A DNA stretch of 64,000 nt, from the sequence record NC_048203.1. The stretch is one strand, 5' to 3'. This DNA is from Escherichia phage vB_Eco_mar003J3. Below, piece after piece: positions 22,813 to 62,339 of the stretch; position 1 is the first letter of the stretch; each line of letters opens with the position of its first letter. Both the position numbers and the translations under genes were made by a program. The notes beneath the pieces are model-generated. The model did not search any database. It was not told where the DNA came from and worked only from the letters and a program-made list of their open reading frames with translations.

Positions 22813-24026
22813 TCTTTATCCCCATCGGCAGTGCCTTGCGGTCTACCACCTTCTTGACCAGATACACCTGTTGCAGAACCAGCAATGTTAGCAGGAATAC
22901 GAATCTTATTCATCTGCTCATCATCTAAAGGTTCAAGGTTAAGCTCTTCACGAGCTTCGTTACCAGTCATGATACCGTTATTAACCAAAGAGGTTAAATG
23001 TTTAGCCTCAGCTTCTTTATCTGGCGTCAGTGCAGCCACTTCCTTAGTATTAGGAGTAACCTTGTAGCCAAAGAAGAAAGTAAGAGAACTAGTCAGCTTG
23101 TTCAGCATGGGAATGATAGTCATGTAATAGAACAATTCGATGTTTGGTCGAATGTTAGCATTATTACCACCATCAAGTAACACTTGCGGAACACCAAAGG
23201 CAAGACAGATGGATTTATTAAATCCTTCGATATCTTCCTTGAAGTCTAGATCTTTAAAAGAGGATATTTGGGAGTACGGTTTTGCTTTCATACCACCATC
23301 TAGAATCAGGACAGTAGACTGACCCGTACTAGGATTATAATCGAGTTGTAATTCTTCTTGTTTACGCTCACGCAATTTCTTGTTCAGGATTTCATCCGTC
23401 TCAAGAATAAGACCAATCACAGTGCCGTTATCGAGGAACTTCTCTTTAAAGTTAAGCATTTTAGAACGCTTCTCAAGAGAGTCAATAACTGTAGCAACAC
23501 GAGATTGTCCAGAAATTTGGGAGTTTGTGCCACACACGTAACTGTTATCCTTTATAAAGATAATCTCATCTACGCGATAGTCTATCTGGTTATTAAATAT
23601 GAATTTTTTGATAAACTTATTGGCATCTGCCTCTACTTGCATTAGTGCAGCAGGGACATGGTAAAGTGCTGTGCCATCCCAATAGATGTATGCACAACCC
23701 TCAAAAAGTAGATCAGTGACTACAAGTCTACGGAATGTGCTTATATCCATGAATGGATTAGGTCGTACATTTAAGAGAGTGTCTAGAGTCTTTGCCTTGA
23801 CGCCGTTAGCGTACGTGACAATATTATATTTATCTCCGACAGTATAAGAACACTCCGCCGCACTATCGATAACCATGTTAGCAGTTCGGTTGAGAATCTC
23901 AATCTTACTGTAGGCTTGTCCAGTGGTAAATGGCTTACGGTTAGTGCGATGACTAACTGGTTCCATGTCTCTTATAATACGTTGACCCGGATTTAGCTTT
24001 TCAGTAATCCAGCTTTTTAAACCCAT
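22809..24026 (-). CDS. portal protein (T5 pb7-like)
   Basis: 405 aa, upstream of protease, downstream of terminase. Confidence 0.75.
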   Translation of the reverse strand: MGLKSWITEKLNPGQRIIRDMEPVSHRTNRKPFTTGQAYSKIEILNRTANMVIDSAAECSYTVGDKYNIVTYANGVKAKTLDTLLNVRPNPFMDISTFRRLVVTDLLFEGCAYIYWDGTALYHVPAALMQVEADANKFIKKFIFNNQIDYRVDEIIFIKDNSYVCGTNSQISGQSRVATVIDSLEKRSKMLNFKEKFLDNGTVIGLILETDEILNKKLRERKQEELQLDYNPSTGQSTVLILDGGMKAKPYSQISSFKDLDFKEDIEGFNKSICLAFGVPQVLLDGGNNANIRPNIELFYYMTIIPMLNKLTSSLTFFFGYKVTPNTKEVAALTPDKEAEAKHLTSLVNNGIMTGNEAREELNLEPLDDEQMNKIRIPANIAGSATGVSGQEGGRPQGTADGDKE

Positions 24027-24550
24027 TATAAGAACCTTGCGAATCCTGATTTAGTTTCAGTCTTGACTTGTGTCTTTTCTTGAGGATTCTGTAGCTTTTC
24101 CTTTTGTTTAAGAACCCATACCTTCTGCTTATTAGCAGAGAAAAGGGGTGGTTCTTTAGTGTACACCTTATGTAATAGTTGGTGATGGTGGACACAAAGG
24201 GTAACAGTGTCATCTACTAGCTCATGCCTATATCTTTCATAGAATGCCGTCCTATTTGAGAGGACTATTTCTTCGTCAGTGAAATCCAATTGGAGTTCTT
24301 TAGCAAATTTTTTAACTAGTAGAGACACTGTATGGTAATGATGAAGTTCTAATTCTTCACCACAACCACAGATTTCGCAGCGATCGGCTTTTTTATATTG
24401 ACTTTTTATACCGTCTCGCATGAGTGATATAGCATCACGTTTATATTTTACATTTCCTGCCACAGTATTCTCCTCAACTGTATGAATATAGTATACATAA
24501 TCATGTCGAATTTGTAAAGGGGATTTTAAAATGCAGGAATGGGATACCAA
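24026..24550 (-). CDS. HNH endonuclease
   Basis: CEICGCGEELELHHYH ... CVHHHQLLH zinc-binding HNH motifs; between large terminase and portal. Confidence 0.7.
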   Translation of the reverse strand: MVSHSCILKSPLQIRHDYVYYIHTVEENTVAGNVKYKRDAISLMRDGIKSQYKKADRCEICGCGEELELHHYHTVSLLVKKFAKELQLDFTDEEIVLSNRTAFYERYRHELVDDTVTLCVHHHQLLHKVYTKEPPLFSANKQKVWVLKQKEKLQNPQEKTQVKTETKSGFARFL

Positions 24551-24577: not shown

Positions 24578-25894
24578 TTATTTCCCACGGGAAATTGAGT
24601 AAATTCCATAACGCAGTGCGTCACAAAGGTGAGAGTTCGCATCATGACGTGGTTTTTCACGTGATAATTTCTCTTCACCTTCCTGGAAGTCCCACTTGTA
24701 GTTCGCTAAGGCGTGGATCAATGAGGTACATGAAGCATCTACGATGATCTTACCTTGCTGGAACAGTGCTTGCAGGCATGCCAAACCATCTAGGACGGAT
24801 TTCTTAGCAGGAGCAGAAGCGATTTCATGTTCATAAGCTAAGTCCTGACGGAACTGAGCAGCGGCGGAGTCTACAAATATACGATCAACATTATAACGAT
24901 CTATGCAGTGCTGGATATAAGCAGCGTGTTGGGCTGTAGTCTTTTCAGCCTGCTGATACTCTTCTAGTATGTAATAAACATCAGTATCATAGTGATACTT
25001 GATAGTAAGAACTGCTGTAGGGTCACGATAACCAACGTCGATACCAAGTAATGTTTCGAAAGCCTCATCATCTTTAAAGAAGTGACGCATACCTTTGAGG
25101 TCTTTAACGTGCTCGATAGCATTGAAGGTATCAAAGATCTGACCTTCGAATACGGAGAAGTCAGCCTCATATTCTTGACGGAAATAGTTTTTACTAACAG
25201 TACGACGCGCTTCTTCGATATCGTTCAGGTCAGCACGTGGGTTATCACGATATGTACCATGAATAGATACCCAATTAGGTAGCGTTTCGTTAAATCCTTT
25301 CTCATAGAACTCTTTGAACCAGTTACCCCCACGAGGAGTAGAGATAAATAGAGCTTTAGAGTTTGGCTTATCTAGGGTAGGACGTAACTGAATATCGAAA
25401 GCTGCACCACCAACGTCGGAAATCGCTGCTTCGTCAAAAATGATGAAGTCATATGAACGACCAACCGCGGAGTCAGCCTGCGCCGCGGAAGCCAGTTTAA
25501 AGAGTGAACCATTCGCTAATTCAATCTCTTTATCTTTGGCGTTCTCACGTTCAGTCTGTAATCCATACTTTTTAATAAGACCACGAATCTGTGACCAACC
25601 AATGTTAGCCAGTGAGTAGTTAGGTGCAACTACTAGCACCTTCACATTGGGTTCCAGAAGTTTTAAGAACCCAAGTGTATATGCGATGAACGACTTACCT
25701 ACACGACGTGATACACATGCAGTTACGAAACGGTGTCTAGGATCTTCCAGCGCGTTAATAATTGCAACCTGAGGGGCGTTAGGCGTAATCCCCTCTTGAG
25801 CTAGAATGCTAGAGACTGGCAGACGGAAAAATCGTTTGTCAATACCAAAGTCAATAACATCTGTGGTGTTAATATAATCTCTAGAGACCTTCAT
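24578..25894 (-). CDS. terminase large subunit
   Basis: 438 aa (T5 large terminase 438 aa); Walker A-like VSRRVGKS; C-terminal acidic nuclease-like segment. Confidence 0.8.
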   Translation of the reverse strand: MKVSRDYINTTDVIDFGIDKRFFRLPVSSILAQEGITPNAPQVAIINALEDPRHRFVTACVSRRVGKSFIAYTLGFLKLLEPNVKVLVVAPNYSLANIGWSQIRGLIKKYGLQTERENAKDKEIELANGSLFKLASAAQADSAVGRSYDFIIFDEAAISDVGGAAFDIQLRPTLDKPNSKALFISTPRGGNWFKEFYEKGFNETLPNWVSIHGTYRDNPRADLNDIEEARRTVSKNYFRQEYEADFSVFEGQIFDTFNAIEHVKDLKGMRHFFKDDEAFETLLGIDVGYRDPTAVLTIKYHYDTDVYYILEEYQQAEKTTAQHAAYIQHCIDRYNVDRIFVDSAAAQFRQDLAYEHEIASAPAKKSVLDGLACLQALFQQGKIIVDASCTSLIHALANYKWDFQEGEEKLSREKPRHDANSHLCDALRYGIYSISRGK

Positions 25895-26376
25895 TATCTC
25901 TTACCTCCTCCTGCTAGAGCGGTAATAAGATTCATATAGTTTTCGTCACCACTTCCAGCAATAATATTATTCTGAATGTTAGTCTGGTTAGCCGGAGTAC
26001 GGGCTGCTGCCTTCACTTTCTCCAGTTCTACCATCATTTTCATTTCTTCCATCTTCATCTTATGCGCCTTCCAGAGAATATCCATGATATCCTGGTCAGA
26101 ACCCATGCCAGTTTCTTCGAGTTCTTCCAACTTGCGCTTGATAACTTCATCAAGAACTCCGAATAAGCGGTCACGATTACGGAAGCCACTTTCCATAAAG
26201 ATATCGTTGAGATAGTTTTTAACTTCCCCACGATTCATTATATCACGGAATACAATCTCGGACATTCCAAGACTACGAGCGGCGGCAGGAACATCACTAC
26301 CGCACTGTAAATAGGCTTCAATAACATCCATGCCCTCAGGAGACATGAGATCGGGAACTAATACATCATTTGCCAT
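25894..26376 (-). CDS. putative terminase small subunit / DNA-binding protein
   Basis: 160 aa immediately upstream of large terminase, start overlapping. Confidence 0.4.
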
Positions 26377-26386
26377 ATATCCTCCT

Positions 26387-28168
26387 TTAGGTTAGGCGTT
26401 GAACTGTTACACGTAGTCTTGGCAAGAAAACAGCCGCCGCTTCCGCAGCGTGAATGATAACACCCAATTCAACGTTGCCATTACCAAGGTTTTTAATAGT
26501 ATAAATATATCCGTTCCTACGGAAAGCAAACTCATCAGGCCTACTAGCCCAAGTTTGTGTATAACTATAGGAAGTTGTACTGTGATAAGGTACTAGATAT
26601 CCAGGTGGCAGAGTAAGAATCTGGTGGAATACACCATCACCAGCAGTATAACTTTGTTGCCGTCTACCTTGTACCTGCCAAGCACTACCTCCGTAAGTAC
26701 GCACAGGCATTCCAGCAGTATTAAGATTACCCATAATAACTTCGGTAGTTAATATAACAGTAGAGTGAGCATTCGGTAATCCCAACCAAACTGTGGCCAA
26801 AGGTGTGTAGAAGTCACCAGCACCAGGGTAGGATGGAGTTATATCGTCCCCTACATAAGTACTTGCAACGTTGCCTGGGAATAACCTGAGTGGTACAGTA
26901 CTAGGACTCCACACAGGTCCATGTTCATTACCAATGGAGTTGGTATTAGTATCTACATACCATTGTTTACCTACACCAAATTTATATAAGCTAATTTGAG
27001 AAGCTGCACCCCCATAGTTAACTGGTGACCACAACCCACCATTACTAGAGCCGATAAATTCACATCGTGCAGTATTATCACCAAAAACTCCGGTATACGC
27101 AGCGTTATTACCAACATACTCCATATCAGGGCGATAGCCTAAGTTTCCGAAAGCATTCTGGTTAATAAATTTATAGCCTGTATTTGGTAGGCTAACACCT
27201 TTAATAGTAAAGTTAGATGGAGATATTAAGATATCTGAACTGGTAAATGGATTACCAGAAACTCCCATACTACCATTAGAATAGCGCAGATTTAGTACAT
27301 ACCAAATAACCTTAGTTGGCGTAACGTTGTACCAGTCCTGTACATATACCTTTCTAGTGGCTTGTGCAGCCATATTAGTTGTAGAACCCCTACAAACGTA
27401 TACTTTAGTAGGAAAGGAGGGGGATTGGTAGTTAATGTTTACGTTATCTGGTAGTACGCCTTTTTTACCTGCGAAGCCACGAATATTAGAACTACAAACA
27501 TAAAACCAATCATGGCCTCTACCAGCAGAACCAATAGGCGCCTGCCAGTTAGGATCCCAATAATCTGCGTTACCACCATCTAAAGGAACAGTAGAGACAC
27601 CAGTTGGAAAACCCATAAGACTCCAGGCTCTGGCAATGGCTTCACCAGCAGAAACACCACCAGGTCTAAAGATCTGGAAACCAGAGGACTGTAGTAAACT
27701 GCCTCCAGAACCTTGCCTAGCAATAGATTCCTCATGACCAAGACCACCATTATAGATATAAGTACCATGAGCTAAACTATCACCGATCGCAAAAGCAGAT
27801 GTTACAGATAATTCAGCACCAGCACGTGGTGGGTCTTCAAAGAATGATAAGAACTGGCCAACCTGAGATTGAGTACCATTCAGAAATCCACGATGAGTAC
27901 CGTTTATCTCAATAGCAGTTAATATAACTCTACCCGGATCATTGGATTTAATATTTATAATATCCCAAGGCATCTGAGTAACAAAGTATCCATTACCTGC
28001 ATTACCTAGGGCTGCTTCATAAGTCCCATCAACCAGGACGAAAGGCATATCTGAGTGGAAGATACTATTAGTATTTGGAGAATAGTGCTCACCAGTATCA
28101 CCACCATTAGCAGCGTTTAGAGATAATACAGTTTTACCATCACTAAATTTTCCTGCGAAAAAACTCAT
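26387..28168 (-). CDS. receptor-binding tail protein (T5 pb5-like)
   Basis: 593 aa starting MSFFAGK; adjacent divergent lipoprotein gene as in T5 oad/llp. Confidence 0.55.
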
Positions 28169-28251
28169 ACAATCTCCTTCTTTAAAAATGTATTTGCTTA
28201 GGTCCCTCTATTTTGCTATAATATATTTATAAATTAAACAGAGGAACGATT

Positions 28252-28518
28252 ATGAAAAAGTTACTAGCTATCGTAGTTGCAGCAGTAGTGTTGACTGGTT
28301 GTGTACCAGCTCCCGAGCCGTTCTGTAAGGCATACGTGAAGTCTTATGGTCATGTTGGTGAAGAACACTATGCTTTAGATATTCGAGAAGCACGTACTGT
28401 GGGCTACCGATTCCCTAAAACTCAGTTACGCACTAAGTTTGGGTGGTGGGATCTGTCACAGTTTGATCTCAAATATGGCGATTGCAAATTTAAACTAGAA
28501 CAATCTGGTCACTTGTAA
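28252..28518 (+). CDS. llp: lipoprotein, superinfection-exclusion Llp-like
   Basis: 88 aa with signal peptide and lipobox LTGC; divergent from receptor-binding protein gene. Confidence 0.55.
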   Translation: MKKLLAIVVAAVVLTGCVPAPEPFCKAYVKSYGHVGEEHYALDIREARTVGYRFPKTQLRTKFGWWDLSQFDLKYGDCKFKLEQSGHL

Positions 28519-29288
28519 TTAGTATAAAGTAAAAAGATCTCGAAGTAAACAAAAATTTTTATTTCTGGGATGAGGTACAGGTAGCAAACACAATGCAAGA
28601 TGAAGAAAAGCCCTTTCAGGAACCTGTTAACTTTGAAATAGATCCCAGGACTAAAGCAATACATGATGCGATTAACGAAATCATTCAAGACGTCATAGAA
28701 GATACAATATAAGACGTGATGGGAACATCCTTCTTACTAGAAGAATCCGGCTTCGACGAAGTAATGGATCTAATCGGGACAGTCGTAATGGTTCGTGCAA
28801 TTGCTAGGGTATTCCAAATACCAAGACTATAGGAGAAGCAAAGAGATGTCAGACGACAACAGAAGAAAGAACAGACGCGGGGAAGTGTACGAAAGTTGGA
28901 TAAATAGTTTCGGATTCGGAACTGTATTATTCTTTATCTTTGTACTCTTTTGGTTAGCGGCTATGGCGGGGTGGTTATAATGGAAGTAATAATTATTGCT
29001 TTACTAGTTGTGGTAATTATCGGGCAGTGCATTTTAGATAACCACTTAACTCGTATCGAACGTAAGCTGCGGGGAGACAAGTAATGTTTAGTTTTGTAGC
29101 TATCTTCATTATTGGGGTACTTGCGGGAATCTTCGGAACACTCGGGGCGATTAATAAGCATCGTGAATATATTGTGGGAGTATCGCGGGAGCTTTCGGAA
29201 AGGGAGCGGAGGTTTGCAGAAAAACGGGAGGAGTTCGAGCGAGAGTGGAGTGCTGGCTCAAGAAGCTCTCGTAGGAGATTTAAGATAG

Positions 29289-29786
29289 ATGACAAATCAT
29301 AAGCCCTTACTTCCCTTAGAGGAATACCAGAGTAAGTTCGATTATGATCCAGAAACAGGTATATTTACTTGGAACTCGGGGAGTCGTAGAGGTAAACCAG
29401 CTGGCGGCCGTAATGACTCGGGCATTTCCCTTTCTATGGGCAGCAAAGGCAAGTATAAGGCCCACCGAGTGGCGTGGTTATACATGACAGGGGAAGATCC
29501 AGGAGATCTTCTAATAGATCATAAAGATCAAGACCCCTGGAACAATAAATGGAACAACTTACGAAAAGCTACGAATAAAGAAAATAGTAATAACTCTTCC
29601 GGATGGGAAAATAAATCCACAGGTGTAAAAGGGATATATAAGAGGACAGAAGGGAAGTTCGAGGCGAGAATACGTGCTAACGGGGAAAGAATCAACGTAG
29701 GTACATTTGGTAGCCTCGAGGAAGCTGAAAGTGCGATAAGGGAAGCACGTGAGAAAGTATGTGGTGAGTTCACAAACCACGGTTAA
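29289..29786 (+). CDS. HNH homing endonuclease with AP2-like DNA-binding domain
   Basis: IDHKDQDPWNNKWNNLRKATNKEN HNH motif; GVKGIYKR...FEARIRANGERINVGTFGSLEEAE AP2-like; opposite strand to neighbours. Confidence 0.7.
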   Translation: MTNHKPLLPLEEYQSKFDYDPETGIFTWNSGSRRGKPAGGRNDSGISLSMGSKGKYKAHRVAWLYMTGEDPGDLLIDHKDQDPWNNKWNNLRKATNKENSNNSSGWENKSTGVKGIYKRTEGKFEARIRANGERINVGTFGSLEEAESAIREAREKVCGEFTNHG

Positions 29787-29959: not shown

Positions 29960-30694
29960 TTAGGCAACTTTTAATTTATCAATGAATTGTTGCGGAGCGG
30001 TACTATAGTCTCCCCTTTCTTCCTCAGTCATACCCTGCCAGCACATTTCTAAGCGCTGGCAAAGATATTGATAATCATTATCATCATCTAACGATTCATC
30101 AATAAAGGTTTCACCGATCAATGCTACGCCGATTGATAGGATATCGTTAACGGCTTGGGCGTCCAGTGTTTTGAATCCAGCACTTGCCGCCACCGATAAT
30201 ACGCCTTTATGATCATCAATCATCGTAAAATCAGCGTTTGGATATAGCTGTTTAAATAGTTCAAAGTAATAGCTTTTGTATACAGCGTCTTTGCTGTGGT
30301 ATATTTCGCTAACCTTATCCGCTTCAAAGTATTTGTGTAATGTATCGCGGGAGAATACGCGGATATTGCTATTTCCGCGCCCTCGCAAGCCTTGTTTACG
30401 CAAATAAAAGTAATCGCTTTTAGACATAAGGCGCGCGGTACAAATAACATTTAAAGTATTTGCATCATTCATACATTGGCGCATATATTCAACCAACGGC
30501 AATAAAGAATCCTGCATAATTAAATCATGTTTACAGGCTTCGCGGGAATACTTATTTAAATTTAAATTCCCGTTATCATCAAAGCAAGGCGCTACACGAT
30601 GGAAAGAATTAATGATTGTGCCGTCCAGATCCCAAATCATGACGCGGGAAATATGCGGGAAATTATGGGTAATATTCGTTTTAACTTGATTCAT
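29960..30694 (-). CDS. dmp: HAD-family 5'-deoxynucleotidase (T5 Dmp-like)
   Basis: 244 aa; HAD motif I WDLDGT near N-terminus. Confidence 0.55.
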   Translation of the reverse strand: MNQVKTNITHNFPHISRVMIWDLDGTIINSFHRVAPCFDDNGNLNLNKYSREACKHDLIMQDSLLPLVEYMRQCMNDANTLNVICTARLMSKSDYFYLRKQGLRGRGNSNIRVFSRDTLHKYFEADKVSEIYHSKDAVYKSYYFELFKQLYPNADFTMIDDHKGVLSVAASAGFKTLDAQAVNDILSIGVALIGETFIDESLDDDNDYQYLCQRLEMCWQGMTEEERGDYSTAPQQFIDKLKVA

Positions 30695-30774
30695 TTGTTA
30701 CATTCTCCATTTAAGGGATCTAGGTTAATTCAGCATTACCCGCTATTTATAAGCGGGTAATAATAAATTAACTA

Positions 30775-31167
30775 TTAAAGACCATACGCCAACGCATCAG
30801 CGATAAAACTAATATCCTCACCTGATACACTGGAACGAATCCCCGCGCAAGTGTAGACCTTTGCAGACATAAGAGCATTATCAAGGCAAGCGGGGCATGG
30901 CGCGACAACTGCAAACGCTAGACCTGATTTTACAGCGTCAATAATAACAGTTTGCTCTTTTACGGTATCAATATAAACGCCTTTTGCTTTTGTATGGCTT
31001 GACGCTTTACCGGTAATGTATGCAAATGTTGTTACCTGTAGCGCCTCGTTAAAGTCTAGCAGTTCATCAATAATATGACCCGATTCAACGTGATAACGCT
31101 CGCCATTAGAATAAACTAGAACGATGGAAGAAGTAGCGTGATCAAAAGGAATGTTTTGGTTTTTCAT
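30775..31167 (-). CDS. A2: pre-early protein (T5 A2-like)
   Basis: 130 aa, immediately downstream of A1-like gene. Confidence 0.4.
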   Translation of the reverse strand: MKNQNIPFDHATSSIVLVYSNGERYHVESGHIIDELLDFNEALQVTTFAYITGKASSHTKAKGVYIDTVKEQTVIIDAVKSGLAFAVVAPCPACLDNALMSAKVYTCAGIRSSVSGEDISFIADALAYGL

Positions 31168-31242
31168 GTTTAAAACTCCAGATTATTTAATTAACTTTTT
31201 CGGGAATATAAGCGGGGAATATTCCCCGCTGATTAAATTTAA

Positions 31243-32907
31243 TTAGGCAAAGAATTTGCCATTTTTGAAATCAATCAAGGTACGTTGACCGTTTGCATAT
31301 GTAATTAAATGCGTTTGCGTCCAGCTTGACGCGCCAACGTTGTAACCCATATCGAGACTACCAGCAACGCCAGCGGTATAAACGCCGCCGTATATACTAG
31401 CCGTGTGAGTGTGGCCCGTGTTGAGGCGTCCTAACTTTTTAAACTGTTTAGGATTGCCCCGACTGCCGTTAATGCCGTTGTGACCATGTACACCGCATTC
31501 AATTCCTGCAATCTTGAAAGATTGGTCAGTAGTCAGGAAAATAGCGTTAAATTCGCAACCTGCAACGTTTCTAAGCGCATAATCCAATACGTTAAAGGTA
31601 TCATCTTGTTTTGCAATAGCCGCATAAATCGCAGCGTTTAGGCTGTGATACAGTTCGGCGTTTGCGGGGTCGTCTTTAATGTTAGCGTTACGATCATCAA
31701 GCCAACGGGATAACGCCAAATCATGATTGGATTCCACGATGATTGTTTGAGAAAAATCGCGCTCCATTGACTCCAACACGCGACCGGTATCAATGAGATC
31801 GTCAATAACTTTATCACGTCCGGCGGCGTATTGTTTCGCAAGGAATACACCACTTGCGCGGTTGTGATGGTTACGCGATGTAAAATCATGCACATCATGA
31901 ATAAACTGATATTTCGGTTTAAGAATATCAAGCAAGCTATTTTCGCCCACCCATGATGCAACGGCGCATTCATCATCTAATTTTTCGGCGTGAATATCGC
32001 CATATTGCAAGCCTAGAACATGATCGGACGTTTCAAAACATCCGGTAGGCATAGCGCAAATATTCAAATCATAAAACATTCCGCTTTCATCCATTGTTTC
32101 AAGCTGGCGAACAAAAAATTCGCCGTCGTCGTCAAATTCTACCAACAAAGCGCCGTAATTATGCAGCGCCTCAGCTTTTTGACCTGCTTTCTGCTGAATA
32201 TAGTTTTTAAGTGTAGCCGTTCCGGTGGAGTACATACGGCGCACTACTTCACCTTTTAACGCTGGCACACTTTCAGCGGTAATTTTAGCGTGACCAATTG
32301 CCAGACCTTCAATATTTAAAGCCGTGGCGGTTTCTGCGAATCCTGAAAGCGGATAGTCTGCCGTTGGTAACACGTTAATTTCAGCCATGAAAGCAAAACG
32401 GCGATTATTTAAAAATACGTTTTTCTCGCAAATATATTTATTAAATGCGGGATCGTATTTAATGCCTTCGTTACCTTCTCCATTCTGGAAGCCGTTTTTA
32501 TTGTAAATGAATTTACTAACCAGCAATTCACCGCCGATATATTCAGCGAATTGCTCAAGCACTTTCAAAAAGTTTTTATGTGGGAAAGTATTATTTTGAA
32601 TCGACGTTAGAATAAAACGGCGACCGGATTTAACTTCCCACTGTTCCACGGTACTAGAAACAATCCCCGCCGCTTCTGGGCGATCATCATTTTTAATCGC
32701 CTTTTCAGCTTTTGCCGCTTTCGGTTTCGCTGGCTTATTTGCTTCCAGCCAGTCACAAATTGCGGTCGAATGTTTCGGCGTGTCATAAACAGCTTTTGAA
32801 ATATCGTCACAAACTTCCAATTTAGTAGCGCGTAAACGCTTGCCATAGAAATTAAAATCAGCGGCAAGTTTAGTGATCTGGGACTGTTTTTCTGCGGAAA
32901 TATTCAT
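31243..32907 (-). CDS. A1: pre-early metallophosphatase-fold protein (T5 A1-like)
   Basis: 554 aa (T5 A1 about 556 aa); calcineurin-like motifs GDIHAE, GHNG, GHTHTAS. Confidence 0.6.
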   Translation of the reverse strand: MNISAEKQSQITKLAADFNFYGKRLRATKLEVCDDISKAVYDTPKHSTAICDWLEANKPAKPKAAKAEKAIKNDDRPEAAGIVSSTVEQWEVKSGRRFILTSIQNNTFPHKNFLKVLEQFAEYIGGELLVSKFIYNKNGFQNGEGNEGIKYDPAFNKYICEKNVFLNNRRFAFMAEINVLPTADYPLSGFAETATALNIEGLAIGHAKITAESVPALKGEVVRRMYSTGTATLKNYIQQKAGQKAEALHNYGALLVEFDDDGEFFVRQLETMDESGMFYDLNICAMPTGCFETSDHVLGLQYGDIHAEKLDDECAVASWVGENSLLDILKPKYQFIHDVHDFTSRNHHNRASGVFLAKQYAAGRDKVIDDLIDTGRVLESMERDFSQTIIVESNHDLALSRWLDDRNANIKDDPANAELYHSLNAAIYAAIAKQDDTFNVLDYALRNVAGCEFNAIFLTTDQSFKIAGIECGVHGHNGINGSRGNPKQFKKLGRLNTGHTHTASIYGGVYTAGVAGSLDMGYNVGASSWTQTHLITYANGQRTLIDFKNGKFFA

Positions 32908-56870: not shown

Positions 56871-57242
56871 TAGATCTCCCTGATGTTAGAATTTGGCTCA
56901 GCTTTTTGTTAACCCAGAAGCAAGATAAAAACTGGAAGGCAGGCTTGCTTATTATCTAATCACTAGCTACGGTTGGGGTGCTAGCATTCCGGTGAGATTG
57001 ATGGTCTCGATTAGATAAATAAGCACTGGAACTTTGATTTTAACGTTGCGATCTTCCAGGTCTGTTGCAACTACGTGATTGCTCACGCTAAGACAATGGC
57101 TATCTAAAGTCCTAGCTTCTACATTTATACTCCTGGATAGCATGGAGTTACAGTCTACTTCCTGCTGTCACGCCCGGCCATTTATAGAATGTGGACTCTC
57201 TTCTCAGAAGGATCTGGTACAATGACCTGATCCTCTGTTTAG

Positions 57243-57315
57243 TAGTTAGTAGTGGATTTGAACCACTGTAGTCGCTCCGTATGAAGGAGGTGCATAACCG
57301 CTCTGCCAACTAACT
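57243..57315 (-). tRNA. tRNA, anticodon CAU (Met or Ile-lysidine)
   Basis: hand-folded cloverleaf; T-arm AGTGG-TTCAAAT-CCACT; acceptor AGTTAGT/ACTAACT. Confidence 0.6.
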
Positions 57316-57321
57316 ATAATT

Positions 57322-57397
57322 TGGTACTCCGACTTGGGATCGAACCAAGATTTGACGATTATCGGTCGCCTGTTCTAACCTGTTGAACTATCAGAGC
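57322..57397 (-). tRNA. tRNA-Ile, anticodon GAU (CCA encoded)
   Basis: acceptor GCTCTGA/TCGGAGT; anticodon loop CCGATAA; T-loop TTCGATC. Confidence 0.55.
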
Positions 57398-57398
57398 A

Positions 57399-57692
57399 TT
57401 ACATCATTTCATCTAAGTAAGAAGTATACTGGTATTTAGCTTCACCAGTCTTATCTACTTCTACCTCAGTTCGTGGTACTTTACGAACTAGACCATGAAT
57501 CATCTTGTACTGAATAGACTTAGATGGTTCGTGATCTTTTGGAAATACTTGTTTAACCGTTACTACTTTGAAGCCTTCACGAGGTGTTAATACAACAACT
57601 TGATCACCTTCTTTAATTTTCCAGGACTCAGGAAATTCATAAGTGTAGCGTTGACCACCAGTTTGGAACACGACAGAAAGATAACGTTTCAT
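57399..57692 (-). CDS. hypothetical protein
   Basis: 97 aa between tRNA genes. Confidence 0.45.
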   Translation of the reverse strand: MKRYLSVVFQTGGQRYTYEFPESWKIKEGDQVVVLTPREGFKVVTVKQVFPKDHEPSKSIQYKMIHGLVRKVPRTEVEVDKTGEAKYQYTSYLDEMM

Positions 57693-57767
57693 TTGGTTTC
57701 CCTCTCATTAATTTATATAAATATTATAACAAGAAATAAGAGAGAAGGCAAATGAATTTTTTAAATT

Positions 57768-57842
57768 TGGTGCTCCTACCAGGAATCGAACCCGGTTCAG
57801 ATGCTTACAAGGCAACTGCATCGCCAGCAATGCTTTAGGAGC
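57768..57842 (-). tRNA. tRNA-Thr, anticodon UGU (CCA encoded)
   Basis: acceptor GCTCCTA/TAGGAGC; loop CTTGTAA. Confidence 0.6.
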
Positions 57843-58009
57843 AATAAACCCATTATTTCAACGGGATTTCTTTTTCAAATATAGGGGACTTATCAGACAT
57901 TACTGTCATAGCCAACTGCTGTAGAAATTCGAATGAGAGTTTTAAACGTTCTTCTCCTAACTCAACCTCAACTCACTTCATTCGTTTATCTACTTTTAGC
58001 TTTAGATTA

Positions 58010-58231
58010 TCAGACATCTTCGGATTCTCGTTGCTCGGCTACTGCTAGCCAGTCTGGTAAAAGAAACTTAGTACGAAACTCTTCATAAGGTTCTTCTGGA
58101 TAAAAGCTAAAATTTGCTTTCTCATCATTCAAGATAACAGAGCCGTCAGTTTGTTCGTATGCTAGGTATGTTTCTCCAATAACAATAACTCGTTTATTGT
58201 TACTTTTATCACGAAACTCAAAAACGTGCAT
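58010..58231 (-). CDS. hypothetical protein
   Basis: 73 aa. Confidence 0.4.
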   Translation of the reverse strand: MHVFEFRDKSNNKRVIVIGETYLAYEQTDGSVILNDEKANFSFYPEEPYEEFRTKFLLPDWLAVAEQRESEDV

Positions 58232-58248
58232 AAATGTTTCCTTAAAGT

Positions 58249-58324
58249 TGGAGCGGCTAGAGGGAATCGAACCCTACTCAGCGGGGCTTGGAAGGCCTGC
58301 GGCACAACCCGTGTGCTTAACCGC
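58249..58324 (-). tRNA. tRNA, anticodon unresolved (possibly UCC or CCA); weak anticodon stem
   Basis: good acceptor and T-arm (TTCGATT), CCA encoded; anticodon arm has mismatches. Confidence 0.45.
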
Positions 58325-58332
58325 TTATTGGC

Positions 58333-58410
58333 TGGCAGGGGATATTGGATTTGAACCAATGATCTCGACTTCAAAGGCCGAAGCTTTAGACCAAGCTAAG
58401 CTAATCCCCA
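58333..58410 (-). tRNA. tRNA-Gln, anticodon UUG
   Basis: anticodon arm TCGGC-CTTTGAA-GTCGA; T-arm ATTGG-TTCAAAT-CCAAT. Confidence 0.55.
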
Positions 58411-58416
58411 ATTGTT

Positions 58417-58492
58417 TGGCTGGGATGCCACGGATCGAACGTAGAACCTTCGGAGTCAGAGGCCGACGATCTACCAATTGATCTACATCCCA
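58417..58492 (-). tRNA. tRNA-Gln, anticodon CUG
   Basis: standard numbering fits; D-stem GATC/GATC, G18G19, loop CTCTGAC, T-loop TTCGATC. Confidence 0.6.
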
Positions 58493-58499
58493 ATAATTT

Positions 58500-58700
58500 T
58501 TATTCTACAGGAACCGTGGCAATTGGATCTGGTTCTTCTAGACGTTTACCATTATGATCAACACGAATAATACCACAACCTTCACAGATTACAACAGCAC
58601 CATAGCCTTCTTTAACTTCGGCTTCTATAATCAGACCAGAAAGATCACCAGTATCTTTGCCCCACATATCGATAGAGCATTCTTTGCAGAAATCAGCCAT
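58500..58700 (-). CDS. small Cys-cluster protein
   Basis: 66 aa; FCKEC...CEGCG. Confidence 0.4.
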   Translation of the reverse strand: MADFCKECSIDMWGKDTGDLSGLIIEAEVKEGYGAVVICEGCGIIRVDHNGKRLEEPDPIATVPVE

Positions 58701-58724
58701 ATTTTAGTTCCTATATAAGTTAAT

Positions 58725-58799
58725 TGGTGCATCCTCAGGGAATCGAACCCCGATCGTAAAGTTCGTAGCTTTACATTCTTTCCATTGAAATAAGGACGC
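58725..58799 (-). tRNA. tRNA-Arg, anticodon ACG
   Basis: anticodon arm GTAAAG-CTACGAA-CTTTAC; acceptor GCGTCCT/AGGATGC; CCA encoded. Confidence 0.7.
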
Positions 58800-58805
58800 A
58801 ATATT

Positions 58806-58882
58806 TGGGGTGGCTAGTGGAATTCGAATCCACATAGGCCTGATTCACAATCAGGATCATTAACCAATTATGATATAGCCAC
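58806..58882 (-). tRNA. tRNA-His, anticodon GUG
   Basis: acceptor GTGGCTA/TAGCCAC; anticodon arm CCTGA-TTGTGAA-TCAGG; T-arm GTGGA-TTCGAAT-TCCAC. Confidence 0.7.
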
Positions 58883-59216
58883 AATTGAAAACTCGCAGGG
58901 TTAGCGAAACCATCCTCAAATAGCATTTTCTAGAATACTAATCAAGTTATCCCCTATTGCACGAAGCTCAAGACGAGTACGAATTTTCAATTGTGGCGGC
59001 TCTCCGAAACTCTTCCCACTTACAACTAGTTGATTACTCCTAGATTGTCGCCCAGGAAATTCTCTAGAAAGGAGCACCGTTACTCTTTGAGCCATTGAGG
59101 TGGGATAGTCTCTTATCTCTACTAACTACTTGATCCTTACAATCAGTCGGTTAGCACGAGCAGCGACTCTTCATATATAATTTATAGTGCTCAGAAGGTC
59201 ATTAGAAGCACTTATC

Positions 59217-59300
59217 AAGAAGCAGAAGGACTCGAACCTTCACGAGATAGACCATTTATCTCAGCCTCGTTTTCGGGTATCTTATGAGGAGTGGATGTTC
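59217..59300 (-). ncRNA. tRNA-like element (T-arm GAAGG-TTCGAGT-CCTTC plus 6-bp hairpin), cloverleaf not resolved
   Basis: no complementary 5' acceptor strand found by eye. Confidence 0.3.
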
Positions 59301-59379
59301 CCCTTACGCCCTTTAGGAAGCCCCGTCTACCGATTCCGGCATACTTCAAGATTCTGCTAGTCCGAGTCATGCTATAGCA

Positions 59380-59721
59380 TCAAATGCTCGGTGTTAGTGG
59401 TTTCCAAAGTTTAGCAAACTTTAAAACATTTGGTATATCGTTAGAACTTACTGGCATAACTACTAAACAGCTGGGTTCTGCGTTACAAATAGTACGCTCA
59501 AATCCTTTACTACACTCTAGCGTAGACAGAATCTTCTTAAATTCTTTCTTGTTAACCTTAATAACTACCTTAAAGAAGCAGTTGTCAAACCAATCCTTAT
59601 ATCTAGGATCATCCTGAAATTTAACATGAGCATTTAAAACAGAGTGTGCCACTAGAGTCGGCACCATATAATCAGGGGCTTCATCTAATACTGCAATATA
59701 CATCTTACTATAAGTACTCAT
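59380..59721 (-). CDS. hypothetical protein
   Basis: 113 aa. Confidence 0.45.
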   Translation of the reverse strand: MSTYSKMYIAVLDEAPDYMVPTLVAHSVLNAHVKFQDDPRYKDWFDNCFFKVVIKVNKKEFKKILSTLECSKGFERTICNAEPSCLVVMPVSSNDIPNVLKFAKLWKPLTPSI

Positions 59722-59737
59722 ACTGTTCCTTATAATT

Positions 59738-59827
59738 TGGAGGAAGGTAATGGAGTCGAACCATCACCATATCGCTACAGCGGGCAGGTTTTCAAGACCT
59801 GTTACATACCACTATGTCCTACCTTCC
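59738..59827 (-). tRNA. tRNA-Ser, anticodon UGA (type II, long variable arm)
   Basis: acceptor GGAAGGT/ACCTTCC; anticodon arm CAGGT-CTTGAAA-ACCTG; 90 nt. Confidence 0.7.
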
Positions 59828-59834
59828 AGTTGTT

Positions 59835-59924
59835 TGGCGGAAGAAGAGAGATTCGAACTCTCAAGCCGTTTTACCAGTCAGCCACTTTCCAAGCGGTTTT
59901 CGTCACCTATCGATTTGCTCTTCC
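59835..59924 (-). tRNA. tRNA-Ser, anticodon GGA (type II)
   Basis: acceptor GGAAGAG/TTCTTCC; loop TTGGAAA; T-arm GAGAG-TTCGAAT-CTCTC; 90 nt. Confidence 0.65.
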
Positions 59925-60098
59925 GTAGATCTCAGGATTAAATCATAAACTTCATTAGCGGATACTGGAAGTATGAGATTATACATCTTTTGGTCATACC
60001 TCTGACCATACTCTATAAACACATACTCTTTAGTTAATGTATTAACAGCTAACCAGATATCAGTTATAGGAGTTTTCATCATGAGTTAATCCAATGTT

Positions 60099-60179
60099 TG
60101 GTAGGGATGGAGGGACTCGAACCCACACCCGAAGACTAGAACCTAAATCTAGCGCGTCTGCCAATTTCGCCACATCCCC
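60099..60179 (-). tRNA. tRNA-Leu-like, anticodon UAG, 9-nt variable region
   Basis: anticodon arm CTAGA-TTTAGGT-TCTAG; acceptor GGGGATG/CATCCCT. Confidence 0.55.
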
Positions 60180-60186
60180 ATTTTAT

Positions 60187-60405
60187 TTAGTTAGAAATAA
60201 ATAGTAACCCTGCAACAATGGAACCTATGCCACTGAATACCATTATCAGCATAGCTTCTAAGCTGATAAAGCGGACGTTATATGGAGCGCCCCAAGAATA
60301 ATCAGTAAAGAAAGTTTTCTTTTCTTTAGCTAAATCTTTAATAGTTCTAAAATAGATAGCTAGTGCTAAAGCTGCAAGAACTACAGAGGCTGCTAAGAAT
60401 ATCAT
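60187..60405 (-). CDS. small membrane protein (2 TM)
   Basis: 72 aa. Confidence 0.45.
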   Translation of the reverse strand: MIFLAASVVLAALALAIYFRTIKDLAKEKKTFFTDYSWGAPYNVRFISLEAMLIMVFSGIGSIVAGLLFISN

Positions 60406-60424
60406 ATTATTTCCTTAATTTGTT

Positions 60425-60500
60425 TGGTGGAGTCACTCAGAATTGAACTGAGTTCCACTGCTTGCAAGGCAGTAAGTTTAACCAAATAACCTATGACCCC
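60425..60500 (-). tRNA. tRNA-Ala, anticodon UGC (G3-U70 present)
   Basis: acceptor GGGGTCA/TGACTCC; anticodon arm ACTGC-CTTGCAA-GCAGT. Confidence 0.7.
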
Positions 60501-60505
60501 GAATT

Positions 60506-60584
60506 TGGTGGAGAATAAGAGATTCGAACTCTTCTGATATCCTCGGTGCAAGCGAGGTGTCCACTCCAAGCAGACCCATTCCCC
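60506..60584 (-). tRNA. tRNA with anticodon UGC and G3-U70 (second Ala-like tRNA)
   Basis: acceptor GGGGAAT/ATTCTCC; anticodon arm CCTCG-CTTGCAC-CGAGG. Confidence 0.55.
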
Positions 60585-60867
60585 AAAATCTTTAAGTTTA
60601 CTAAGGCTATTAGCTCGGTGTGCGTATTACCCTCAGACATTAGCCAGTAGAGGATAACCGCTCTTCACAAACCCGATACACTATTCAGTTGCCGCTGAAT
60701 CTAGTGGACTAATCTAGAACTTATTGCAAAGTATCCCCCGCCATTAAGGGTCTAATTGCAATTGTGCTTTTTGGCAGCCAGTCCTAGGTCGAGCTAATAC
60801 CTTAGTGAACTTTGATGAGGATTTCTCCTCATCAATTTATATAAATATTATAACAAGAAATTAAGCA

Positions 60868-61227
60868 TCAAGCAAGTACATTTTTAGCGATTTCTTGTAT
60901 TTCCTTAACGTCACTAACGAAAAGGTAATCAGAGCTTCCAGAGTGCATACTCTGCATAACCACACCATCCTCTGGTGCATCTTCTTTCAGTGTGATACCT
61001 AACCAGAACTCGGCAAAACTAGGTGTTACCTCACCTTGACTTGCCTTGAATACATCGGCTTCTGTAATCTCTTGACCAGTGGAGAGTCCCATGTATGGTA
61101 CGTTCAGATCAATATCTTTGTAGAATTCAGCTAGATCTTGTTCGAAGTCCCAACCTTTAGAGATAGCGAACTCACTTGTTACATGACCGAAATAGCCTTG
61201 AACCTTGCTTGATAATTGCATTTGCAA
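60868..61227 (-). CDS. hypothetical acidic protein
   Basis: 119 aa. Confidence 0.45.
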   Translation of the reverse strand: MQMQLSSKVQGYFGHVTSEFAISKGWDFEQDLAEFYKDIDLNVPYMGLSTGQEITEADVFKASQGEVTPSFAEFWLGITLKEDAPEDGVVMQSMHSGSSDYLFVSDVKEIQEIAKNVLA

Positions 61228-61246
61228 TTCCTTATTTTGAGTTAAT

Positions 61247-61320
61247 TGGTACTCGGTGATAGAATCGAACTATCGCAACCGCCGTGTAAAGACGGGGTTC
61301 TCCCATTAAACTAACCGAGC
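61247..61320 (-). tRNA. tRNA-Val, anticodon UAC
   Basis: acceptor GCTCGGT/ACCGAGT; loop TTTACAC; T-arm GATAG-TTCGATT-CTATC. Confidence 0.65.
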
Positions 61321-61329
61321 AAAGTAATT

Positions 61330-61407
61330 TGGTGGGTCGTGAAGGACTCGAACCTTCAACCTATTGCTTAAAAGGCAAGTGCTACTAACCAATTGAGCTA
61401 ACGACCC
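61330..61407 (-). tRNA. tRNA-Lys, anticodon UUU
   Basis: acceptor GGGTCGT/ACGACCC; loop CTTTTAA; T-arm GAAGG-TTCGAGT-CCTTC. Confidence 0.6.
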
Positions 61408-61591
61408 TTAATACGGATAAACTTCCTTAATAGAGTAAGCTTCTAAGTAGCGATGATTAATACCAAATTCAGCCATTACTTCATTTTCATCTTTACCATA
61501 GTGGGCTAAGGTATACTTCGAACGATCTTTGCTAGAACGTCGATCACTTACTACTAATCGAAATAATTTCATTTCGTATCCTCTACTAAAT

Positions 61592-61669
61592 TGGAAGCGG
61601 GTGTAGGAATCGAACCTACCTCTTACTAGCTTATGAGACTAGTGATCTCTACCAGAGATCTAACCCGCA
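61592..61669 (-). tRNA. tRNA, anticodon CAU (Met or Ile-lysidine), second copy
   Basis: anticodon arm CTAGT-CTCATAA-GCTAG; D-stem GATC/GATC. Confidence 0.55.
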
Positions 61670-61675
61670 ATTGTT

Positions 61676-61752
61676 TGGTCTCCAATGAAGGACTCGAACC
61701 TTCAACCCCACCGCCCCAAACGGTGTACTCTAGCCAATTGAGCTAATCGGAG
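61676..61752 (-). tRNA. tRNA-Pro, anticodon UGG
   Basis: acceptor CTCCGAT/ATTGGAG; anticodon arm CACCG-TTTGGGG-CGGTG. Confidence 0.65.
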
Positions 61753-62260: not shown

Positions 62261-62261
62261 T

Positions 62262-62339
62262 TGGTACACCTGCTGAGATTCAAACTCAGTATCTTCCGAT
62301 TAAGAGTCGGTTGCTTTAAGTCAACTAAGCTACAGATGC
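62262..62339 (-). tRNA. tRNA, anticodon CUU (Lys-like)
   Basis: acceptor GCATCTG/CAGGTGT; loop CTCTTAA; T-arm CTGAG-TTTGAAT-CTCAG. Confidence 0.5.

What the first reader, a model, noticed from the sequence alone, without database searches (positions are those of the whole stretch)
26387..28518. Receptor-binding protein with a divergent lipoprotein: likely receptor-blocking superinfection exclusion pair
The arrangement mirrors T5 oad/llp, where the lipoprotein masks the outer-membrane receptor used by the phage. The receptor-binding protein here is 593 aa rather than 640 aa, so receptor specificity may differ from T5.
Basis: partly seen in the sequence, partly recalled or inferred. Interest (0 to 1): 0.4.

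Follow-up and report, generated by a model that had tools for sequence, protein, structure and literature searches.

The report
BtuB-type T5-like receptor-binding/receptor-blocking module
This is the well-known two-gene host-recognition module of a T5-like Salmonella/E. coli phage, in its common vitamin-B12-transporter (BtuB) version: a tail-tip receptor-binding protein, and next to it a small lipoprotein that blocks the same receptor after infection. It is ordinary.

Summary
Both ORFs exist exactly as reported: a 593-aa protein (26387..28168, -) and a divergently transcribed 88-aa lipoprotein (28252..28518, +), downstream of terL/terS, with the same synteny as T5 oad/llp and BF23 hrs/llp. The window is an Epseptimavirus-like T5 relative, 98-99% identical in DNA to many Salmonella phages. 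The large protein is a full-length pb5 homologue (29% identity to T5 pb5, E 2e-50). It belongs to the BtuB clade: 97% identity to Bas30 TrudiRoth (btuB dependence shown by complementation), 99% to Bas28, 94% to EPS7, 83% to SPC35 and 76% to BF23 Hrs. Identity to FhuA- and FepA-type proteins is only 31-32%. The lipoprotein has a canonical lipobox (LTGC). It is 100% identical to the protein of over 100 phage records, 99% to EPS7's 'receptor-blocking protein' and 68% to BF23 Llp. The BF23 type blocks BtuB phages but not T5 in experiments. Similarity to T5 Llp stops at the signal peptide and first cysteine, although the architecture is shared. The module is already described, annotated and used for receptor prediction. 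Low interest.

The parts
26387..28168 (-). Receptor-binding tail-tip protein, 593 aa. It belongs to the pb5/Hrs family, BtuB clade (EPS7/Epseptimavirus type).
   Evidence: ORF. PHROG 4815, E 1.2e-280. 29% identity to T5 pb5 over the full length, E 2e-50. PDB 8b14_B/8a8c_B pb5, E ~1e-44. 75% to BF23 Hrs. 97% to Bas30, 99% to Bas28, 83% to SPC35, 65% to DT571/2; 31-32% to T5, S124 and Shivani. 94% to EPS7 and 96% to S116. The N-terminal MSFFAGK and C-terminal QRLT motifs are shared with T5 pb5.
28169..28251 (.). 83-bp divergent intergenic region. It holds a sigma-70-type promoter facing the lipoprotein gene: TTGCTT at 28194-28199, a 17-nt spacer, TATAAT at 28217-28222, with TG two bases upstream. 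Both ribosome-binding sites are also here: AGAGGA for llp and GAAGGAG for the RBP gene.
   Evidence: Sequence. Both hexamers are invariant in an alignment with Bas28, EPS7, SPC35, BF23 and T5. Putative promoters are annotated at the same place in T5 and BF23. The consensus scan missed it because the -35 matches only 3 of 6 bases. Promoter activity is inferred, not shown.
28252..28518 (+). Receptor-blocking (lytic conversion / superinfection exclusion) lipoprotein precursor, 88 aa, BF23/EPS7-type Llp. The signal peptide is residues 1-16 and the lipidated Cys is residue 17. The mature protein is 72 aa with Cys9 and Cys62, and residue +2 is Val.
   Evidence: ORF. Lipobox LTGC at 14-17 and Cys pattern. 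PHROG 1119, E 1.2e-23. 100% identical to Bas28 'superinfection exclusion protein', 99% to EPS7 'receptor-blocking protein', 68% to BF23 and SPC35 Llp. AF2 model with pLDDT 82.7. Best BFVD match is the phiR2-01 receptor-blocking protein, TM 0.81.
25894..26376 (-). Terminase small subunit (T5 'sciB' position), immediately downstream of the RBP gene. It is the synteny anchor of the module.
   Evidence: PHROG 3802, E 7e-90. Same position in T5, BF23, SPC35 and Seafire.
24578..25894 (-). Terminase large subunit (synteny anchor).
   Evidence: Pfam Terminase_6N and Terminase_6C. PHROG 2.

Best explanation
The two genes form the host-recognition module of a T5-like (Markadamsvirinae, Epseptimavirus-type) virulent siphophage, in its BtuB-specific version. 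The 593-aa protein is the pb5/Hrs-type receptor-binding protein at the tip of the straight central tail fibre. It binds the TonB-dependent vitamin-B12 transporter BtuB of Salmonella or E. coli irreversibly, and this triggers DNA ejection. The 88-aa product is made from its own sigma-70 promoter early in infection. It is exported, lipidated at Cys17 and sorted to the inner leaflet of the outer membrane, since residue +2 is Val rather than Asp. There it binds BtuB and makes it unusable for this class of RBP. Superinfection is prevented, and progeny are not wasted on receptor in lysed-cell debris. By analogy with T5 Llp and FhuA, the block is probably applied from the periplasmic side, by jamming the plug and folding extracellular loops inward. 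What is shown here: the ORFs, the lipobox, homology, synteny, clade membership and promoter conservation. What is shown in the literature for close homologues: BtuB dependence of Bas30, EPS7 and BF23, and exclusion by BF23/DT57C Llp. What is inferred: that this phage's proteins do the same, that the lipoprotein is periplasmic, and that the block is allosteric.
For: Synteny is identical to T5 oad/llp and BF23 hrs/llp.

The RBP is homologous to pb5 over its full length.

The RBP falls in the BtuB clade with 65-99% identity, against 31-32% to FhuA- and FepA-type RBPs.

The btuB dependence of Bas30 TrudiRoth was complemented genetically, and RBP clusters are stated to predict the receptor (PMC8594841).

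BF23 Hrs, EPS7, DT57C and phiR2-01 are named as BtuB binders (PMC10644984).

The lipoprotein has a canonical lipobox and two further Cys.

It is 68% identical to BF23 Llp. DT57C Llp, one residue different from BF23's, lowered plating of BF23 and the DT phages more than 100-fold and did not affect T5 (PMC4728585).

The C-terminal half of llp shows 11 synonymous against 2 non-synonymous codon differences from BF23, so it is under strong purifying selection.

The promoter facing llp is conserved across T5, BF23, SPC35 and EPS7.

The periplasmic, plug-jamming mechanism was solved for T5 Llp-FhuA and proposed to apply to other TonB-dependent transporters (PMC9586334).
Against: Nothing contradicts it, but several steps are untested.

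No experiment on this phage or on the EPS7-type Llp itself was found. Hong 2008 and Kim & Ryu 2011 were not readable here.

The lipoprotein shows no demonstrable homology to T5 Llp beyond residue ~29. Its AF2 model does not match the solved T5 Llp structures 8a60_B and 7qjf_A among the top Foldseek hits. The T5 mechanism is therefore carried over by analogy only.

The N-terminal half of the mature lipoprotein is only ~52% identical to BF23's.
Confidence: 0.93

Rival explanations
1. The RBP recognises a receptor other than BtuB, for example FhuA, FepA or another TonB-dependent transporter, and the lipoprotein blocks that receptor instead.
For: Receptor use was not tested for this phage. The RBP region at residues 151-250 is variable among BtuB-type RBPs, at 38-66% identity to BF23 and DT571/2. 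Three to sixteen substitutions separate it from Bas28 and Bas30.
Against: It is 97-99% identical to Bas30 and Bas28, and Bas30's btuB dependence was complemented. It is 94-96% identical to EPS7 and S116, which are listed as BtuB phages. Even DT57C-type RBPs, only 65% identical, still use BtuB. Identity to FhuA- and FepA-type RBPs is 31-32%.
Confidence: 0.03
2. The 88-aa lipoprotein is not a receptor blocker. It would be another kind of small outer-membrane lipoprotein, such as an o-spanin-like lysis component or a moron of unrelated function, that happens to lie beside the RBP gene.
For: Small phage lipoproteins also occur as o-spanins (general knowledge). The lipoprotein has no Pfam or NCBIfam family above threshold and no PDB fold match.
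Against: It is 68% identical to BF23 Llp and sits in the same position and orientation. BF23/DT57C Llp expressed alone excludes BtuB phages. No i-spanin, holin or endolysin partner lies next to it. The gene always travels with BtuB-type RBPs in about 400 phage records.
Confidence: 0.02
3. The lipoprotein does block BtuB, but by a mechanism different from T5 Llp. It might be flipped to the cell surface and occlude the RBP site directly, or it might use a different periplasmic interface without allosteric loop closure.
For: Homology to T5 Llp cannot be shown beyond the signal peptide and first Cys. There is no structural match to 8a60_B or 7qjf_A. The predicted fold is a five-stranded sheet or barrel with a C-terminal helix. 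The T5 authors themselves raise surface exposure as a possibility for other SE lipoproteins.
Against: The architecture is shared with T5 Llp and Cor: lipidated Cys1, plus an N-proximal Cys paired with a C-proximal Cys (Cys9/Cys62 here, Cys11-Cys58 in T5 Llp). The size, genomic position and promoter are also shared. BtuB is a TonB-dependent transporter with the same plug allostery, and the T5 authors consider the mechanism likely to be general. AF2 models of Llp are known to be unreliable, so the missing fold match carries little weight.
Confidence: 0.12

Closest known systems
EPS7 / BASEL Bas28 (IrmaTschudi) and Bas30 (TrudiRoth) / Salmonella phage S116, Seafire, SE3: the Epseptimavirus RBP plus 'receptor-blocking protein' module
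   Same: It is essentially the same genes. RBP identity is 94-99.8% and lipoprotein identity 99-100%. The intergenic promoter and the synteny are identical. The receptor is BtuB, shown experimentally for EPS7, Bas30 and the S1xx phages.
   Different: There are only a few substitutions: 3 against Bas28 and 16 against Bas30, the latter clustered at residues 25-27 and 245-271.
BF23 Hrs + Llp (also DT57C, DT571/2 and SPC35), the Tequintavirus BtuB module
   Same: Same family for both proteins: RBP 65-83% and Llp 68% identity. Lengths match (595 and 88 aa in BF23), as do the divergent arrangement and the promoter. Llp of this type excludes BtuB phages in experiments.
   Different: The N-terminal half of mature Llp is only ~52% identical, with 19 non-synonymous codon differences in 40 codons. 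The C-terminal 31 residues are 94% identical. RBP residues 151-250 are the most divergent stretch.
T5 pb5 (Oad) + Llp, the FhuA module (PDB 8a8c, 8b14, 8a60, 7qjf)
   Same: The RBP is homologous end to end (29% identity, E 2e-50). Gene order, divergent transcription and the TTGCTT-17-TATAAT promoter are the same. Both lipoproteins are small OM lipoproteins with a lipidated Cys1 plus a Cys pair, and both hit PHROG 1119.
   Different: The receptor is FhuA rather than BtuB. pb5 is 47 aa longer, with the indels spread over loop regions. The lipoprotein sequences do not align beyond residue ~29, and the model does not match the solved Llp structures.
Cor lipoproteins of T1, phi80, N15 and small siphoviruses
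   Same: They are small OM lipoproteins encoded beside the RBP that exclude phages using the same TonB-dependent transporter. They fall in the same PHROG. There is a weak fold match to a Drexlerviridae-type 'super-infection exclusion protein' (E 6e-3, TM 0.46).
   Different: The NCBIfam Cor model scores 13.7 bits against a cutoff of 31. The target is FhuA, and the phage family is different.

Membership tests
pb5/Hrs receptor-binding protein family of Markadamsvirinae | Full-length sequence homology to T5 pb5 or BF23 Hrs | tested here: met
   PHROG 4815 at E 1.2e-280 over residues 1-593. T5 pb5 at 29% identity, E 2e-50, end to end. BF23 Hrs at 75%.
pb5/Hrs receptor-binding protein family of Markadamsvirinae | [quoted passage not shown] | tested here: met
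   RBP at 26387-28168, followed by terS at 25894-26376 and terL at 24578-25894 on the same strand. The order is the same in T5, BF23, SPC35, Seafire and DT571/2. [quoted passage not shown]
pb5/Hrs receptor-binding protein family of Markadamsvirinae | Binds a TonB-dependent outer-membrane transporter and triggers DNA ejection | not testable with these tools
   This needs plating or adsorption assays on receptor mutants.
BtuB-specific RBP clade (BF23, EPS7, SPC35, DT57C, Bas26-34) | Clusters with RBPs of phages shown experimentally to need BtuB, apart from the FhuA and FepA clusters | tested here: met
   Identity is 97% to Bas30, 99% to Bas28, 83% to SPC35, 76% to BF23 and 65% to DT571/2. It is 32% to S124 (FepA type) and 31% to T5 (FhuA).
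BF23/EPS7-type receptor-blocking lipoprotein (Llp) | Sec/SPII signal peptide with a lipobox and an invariant Cys | tested here: met
   MKK, then LLAIVVAAVV, then LTG|C with Cys17. The Cys is invariant in 11 family members. LPAM_1 scores 18.6 bits, just under the cutoff of 20.
BF23/EPS7-type receptor-blocking lipoprotein (Llp) | Sequence homology to BF23 Llp | tested here: met
   68% identity over all 88 residues. tblastn finds 396 phage records, all at 50% identity or more.
BF23/EPS7-type receptor-blocking lipoprotein (Llp) | Encoded next to the RBP gene and transcribed divergently from it | tested here: met
   An 83-bp gap, opposite strands. PMC8624392 describes this arrangement as the hallmark of the module.
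BF23/EPS7-type receptor-blocking lipoprotein (Llp) | Expression alone makes cells resistant to BtuB-dependent phages but not to T5 | not testable with these tools
   Shown for DT57C and BF23 Llp (PMC4728585). It has not been shown for this sequence.
T5 Llp / Cor lipoprotein family | Detectable sequence homology of the mature domain to T5 Llp or Cor | tested here: not met
   BLASTP gives E 0.059, covering the signal peptide only. hhalign aligns columns 1-29 only. The NCBIfam Cor model scores 13.7 bits against a cutoff of 31. A profile search of 1.84 billion representatives did not reach T5 Llp or Cor. Both proteins do hit PHROG 1119, but that profile was built by remote-homology clustering and may simply contain both types.
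T5 Llp / Cor lipoprotein family | Same fold as solved T5 Llp (8a60_B, 7qjf_A) | tested here: inconclusive
   T5 Llp is in the PDB library but is absent from the top 50 Foldseek hits, and nothing has E below 0.1. AF2 models of Llp are reported to be inaccurate, so this negative result is weak.
T5 Llp / Cor lipoprotein family | Architecture: lipidated Cys1 plus an intramolecular disulphide tying an N-proximal Cys to a C-proximal Cys | tested here: met
   The mature protein has Cys1, Cys9 and Cys62 of 72 residues, and all three are invariant in the family. T5 Llp has Cys1 and a Cys11-Cys58 disulphide in 62 residues. The disulphide itself is inferred here.

The most novel reading that the evidence does not exclude
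The BtuB-type Llp may be an evolutionarily independent, convergent solution rather than a diverged T5 Llp/Cor. It would have its own small beta-rich fold and its own way of locking BtuB. The invariant C-terminal half (QLRTKFGWWDLSQFDLKYGDCKFKLEQS) would be the BtuB-binding surface. The fast-evolving N-terminal half would tune specificity between Salmonella-adapted (EPS7-type) and E. coli-adapted (BF23-type) modules, so cross-exclusion between the two subtypes could be incomplete. No BtuB-Llp structure is known to me or turned up in the searches here, so none of this is excluded.
Probability: 0.2. Interest if true: 0.35.

Novelty: already known. Interest (0 to 1): 0.08.

Why it matters
It matters little as a discovery. 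The RBP/Llp module of T5-like phages has been studied since the 1990s: T5 by Decker 1994, BF23 by Mondigler 2006 and EPS7 by Hong 2008. It is solved structurally for T5 and is used routinely to predict receptors in Markadamsvirinae. The practical value is annotation. This phage almost certainly needs BtuB, so btuB loss will give resistance. Cells it infects will exclude other BtuB-dependent T5-like phages, which is relevant when designing phage cocktails. One open point remains: how a lipoprotein with no detectable similarity to T5 Llp blocks BtuB has not been shown structurally.

Tried and rejected
(1) Direct homology of the lipoprotein to T5 Llp. BLASTP, hhalign of an 11-sequence family profile against T5 Llp and the NCBIfam Cor model give nothing beyond the signal peptide and first Cys. 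I therefore do not file it in the T5 Llp/Cor family, only as a functional analogue with a shared architecture.

(2) Fold-level test. The AF2 model (pLDDT 82.7) searched against the PDB gave no significant hit and did not retrieve 8a60_B or 7qjf_A. This is inconclusive, because AF2 is reported to model Llp poorly and I had no access to the coordinates to check the Cys9-Cys62 distance.

(3) Sensitive profile search of 1.84 billion representatives. It found only the family's own representative, three long proteins with repeated short matches that I judge spurious, and one 86-aa lipoprotein (P0014, E 5.5e-4) with the same Cys pattern. The family is narrow.

(4) The consensus promoter scan did not report the llp promoter. 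Reading the sequence and aligning it showed a conserved TTGCTT-17-TATAAT.

(5) Recombination as the cause of the identical C-terminal half of Llp against BF23. I rejected this because the DNA differs at 11 synonymous sites there.

(6) The primary EPS7 and SPC35 papers (PMC9021807, PMC3067339) and the H8 record (NC_042307) were not available. S124 served as the FepA-type reference instead.

(7) An o-spanin or lysis role for the lipoprotein. Rejected on context and on homology to the experimentally tested BF23 Llp.

Full report
**Observation**

The window carries a 593-aa ORF at 26387..28168 on the minus strand and an 88-aa ORF at 28252..28518 on the plus strand, exactly as reported. An 83-bp divergent intergenic region separates them. 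Downstream of the large ORF, on the same strand, lie the terminase small subunit (25894..26376) and large subunit (24578..25894), followed by a portal gene. DNA of 26000-29000 is 98-99% identical to many Salmonella and Escherichia phages of the genus Epseptimavirus (Demerecviridae, Markadamsvirinae), such as SE3, SE7, Seafire and saus132. Most of those records annotate the two genes as 'receptor-binding (tail) protein' and 'receptor-blocking protein' or 'Cor superinfection exclusion protein'. The window is therefore part of a T5-like phage genome. It also contains the pre-early genes dmp and A1 and a block of 20 tRNA genes.

**The large protein**

It matches PHROG 4815 'receptor binding tail protein' from end to end (E 1.2e-280). 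It aligns over its whole length with T5 pb5, the product of oad, at 29% identity and E 2e-50, including the shared N-terminal MSFFAGK and C-terminal QRLT. The only solved structures it matches are T5 pb5 (8b14_B and 8a8c_B, E ~1e-44). Membership of the pb5/Hrs family is therefore met. The 47-residue length difference from pb5 is spread over several indels, in the stretches that align to about 200-300 and 495-575 of pb5.

**Which receptor**

In a joint alignment the window RBP shows the following identities:
- 99% to Bas28 IrmaTschudi
- 97% to Bas30 TrudiRoth
- 83% to SPC35
- 76% to BF23 Hrs
- 65% to DT571/2
- 32% to S124 (FepA type)
- 32% to Shivani
- 31% to T5 (FhuA type)

tblastn adds 94% to EPS7, 96% to S116 and 99.8% to SB6.

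The BASEL paper reports that the btuB dependence of TrudiRoth (Bas30) was fully complemented. It also reports that Markadamsvirinae RBPs fall into three clusters (BtuB, FepA, FhuA) that predict the terminal receptor, with EPS7 and S132 as shown BtuB users (PMC8594841). The BF23 genome paper lists BF23 Hrs, DT57C, EPS7 and phiR2-01 as homologous BtuB binders (PMC10644984). The receptor is therefore BtuB with high confidence. Among BtuB-type RBPs the most variable stretch is residues 151-250, at 54-66% identity to BF23 and 38-52% to DT571/2. This agrees with the published view that the N-terminal ~200 residues carry divergent receptor-recognition patches.

**The small protein**

It begins MKK-LLAIVVAAVV-LTG|C. 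That is a positively charged n-region, a hydrophobic core and a canonical lipobox at residues 14-17. The mature protein has 72 residues, with Val at +2, which by the E. coli Lol sorting rule (established knowledge) means outer-membrane sorting. It has two further cysteines, at mature positions 9 and 62. All three cysteines are invariant in the family.

The sequence is 100% identical to the 'superinfection exclusion protein' of Bas28 and to that of more than 100 other phage records. It is 99% identical to the EPS7 'receptor-blocking protein' and 68% identical to the Llp of BF23 and SPC35.

For the BF23 type there is direct evidence. DT57C Llp differs from BF23 Llp by one residue. Expressed from a plasmid, it lowered plating of BF23 and the DT phages more than 100-fold and left T5 unaffected. 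Mondigler et al. 2006 reported about six orders of magnitude for BF23 Llp (PMC4728585).

Against BF23 llp, codons 58-88 show 11 synonymous and 2 non-synonymous differences, whereas codons 18-57 show 14 and 19. The identical C-terminal half is thus kept by purifying selection, not by recent recombination, and is the likely functional core.

**Relation to T5 Llp**

Pairwise BLASTP gives only the signal peptide (E 0.059). hhalign of an 11-member family profile against T5 Llp aligns columns 1-29 only, from the signal peptide to the first mature Cys. The NCBIfam Cor model is far below its cutoff. A profile search over 1.84 billion representatives finds only the family itself plus one 86-aa lipoprotein with the same Cys pattern.

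An AF2 model has mean pLDDT 82.7 and above 90 over most of the mature domain. It shows five strands and a C-terminal helix. It has no significant PDB match, although T5 Llp is in the library as 8a60_B and 7qjf_A. In BFVD its best match is the phiR2-01 receptor-blocking protein (TM 0.81), followed weakly by a siphovirus SE protein. AF2 is reported to mispredict Llp, so the fold comparison is inconclusive.

Both proteins do hit PHROG 1119. They also share an architecture: a lipidated Cys1 plus a Cys pair tying the N- and C-terminal regions together, Cys11-Cys58 in T5 Llp. The literature likewise calls the T5 and BF23 Llps non-homologous while noting that the module is preserved. I therefore file the lipoprotein as a member of the BF23/EPS7-type Llp family and as a functional analogue of T5 Llp/Cor, possibly a very distant relative.

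**Regulation**

The intergenic region contains TTGCTT (28194-28199), a 17-nt spacer and TATAAT (28217-28222) with TG two bases upstream, facing the lipoprotein gene. AGAGGA lies 7 nt before its ATG. GAAGGAG precedes the RBP start on the other strand. Both hexamers and the surrounding A/T-rich blocks are invariant in Bas28, EPS7, SPC35, BF23 and even T5, although the flanking coding sequences of T5 are unrelated at the DNA level. T5 and BF23 records annotate putative promoters at the same place. This fits the published early expression of llp (title of Decker et al. 1994, cited). Promoter activity is inferred.

**Mechanism**

The most likely sequence of events is as follows.
- The RBP at the tail tip binds BtuB and triggers ejection.
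- The lipoprotein is made early, lipidated and sent to the inner leaflet of the outer membrane.
- There it binds BtuB and makes it unavailable to this class of RBP.
- This prevents superinfection and the loss of progeny on debris.

For T5, Llp binds the periplasmic face of FhuA. It traps a non-native plug conformation and causes loops EL7 and EL8 to fold inward over the pb5 site. The authors propose that this applies to other TonB-dependent transporters (PMC9586334). Extending it to BtuB and this lipoprotein is an analogy. I give about 0.12 to a different mode of blocking.

**Verdict**

The receptor can be named as BtuB. The module is already known, sequenced hundreds of times, annotated, tested experimentally in close relatives and used for receptor prediction. 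Novelty: already known. Interest is low.

Noticed in passing
window 28169-28251 (compare L002, L003, L004, L005, L006): The 83-bp divergent promoter region between the RBP and llp genes is almost invariant across T5, BF23, SPC35, EPS7 and Bas28. This includes TTGCTT-17-TATAAT and a TATAAATTA block. The flanking coding sequences of the FhuA and BtuB modules are unrelated at the DNA level. The conserved spacer could serve as a recombination junction for swapping half-modules, as was proposed for DT57C.
   Followed up: partly
window 28252-28518 vs L006:11653-11919: The Llp C-terminal 31 residues are 94% identical to BF23's despite 11 synonymous codon differences. The N-terminal 40 mature residues have 19 non-synonymous differences. 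This is a sharp split between a constrained half and a fast-evolving half of a 72-aa protein.
   Followed up: partly
window 29289-29786 (+): A 165-aa HNH plus AP2-domain homing endonuclease (Pfam HNH_3 at 2.6e-14, AP2 at 1e-5; PHROG 99). It sits between the small early ORFs after llp and the dmp gene, and its start overlaps the end of a 72-aa membrane-protein ORF (29084-29302). Bas28 has a 'putative homing endonuclease' at the same place. BF23 and T5 have none there.
   Followed up: partly
window 24026-24550 (-): A 174-aa ORF between the portal and terL genes with a Cys/His-rich HNH-like motif (PHROG 3497; weak match to HNH PHROG 8048). It occupies the position annotated 'nicking endonuclease' in BF23. 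The listed TTG start is probably too far upstream, because the PHROG match begins at residue 40.
   Followed up: partly
L011:2319-2630 (S124) and L008:352-678 (Shivani): In phages with FepA-like RBPs, the gene divergent from the RBP is annotated 'receptor blocking protein, T5 Llp-like' in S124. It encodes a ~103-108-aa acidic protein with no signal peptide or lipobox (PHROG 16810, unknown function). That annotation looks unsupported, and the real blocker of the FepA module, if there is one, may lie elsewhere.
   Followed up: partly
window 57242-63374 (-): A cluster of 20 tRNA genes, typical of T5-like phages. It includes duplicate tRNA-Ala(tgc) genes and pairs for Gln, Ser, Lys and Met.
   Followed up: no
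window 29960-32907 (-): The pre-early genes dmp (5'-deoxynucleotidase, 29960-30694) and A1 (DNA transfer protein, 31243-32907) follow directly after the llp region. In T5 and BF23 these lie in the terminal repeat. The window therefore seems to come from an assembly in which the long terminal repeat is collapsed or the genome is permuted.
   Followed up: no
P0014: An 86-aa lipoprotein from the metagenome and genome representatives (E 5.5e-4). It has the same Cys1, N-proximal Cys and C-proximal Cys pattern and a GW motif. It is the only distant relative of the BtuB-type Llp found among 1.84 billion representatives. Its genomic context was not examined.
   Followed up: no
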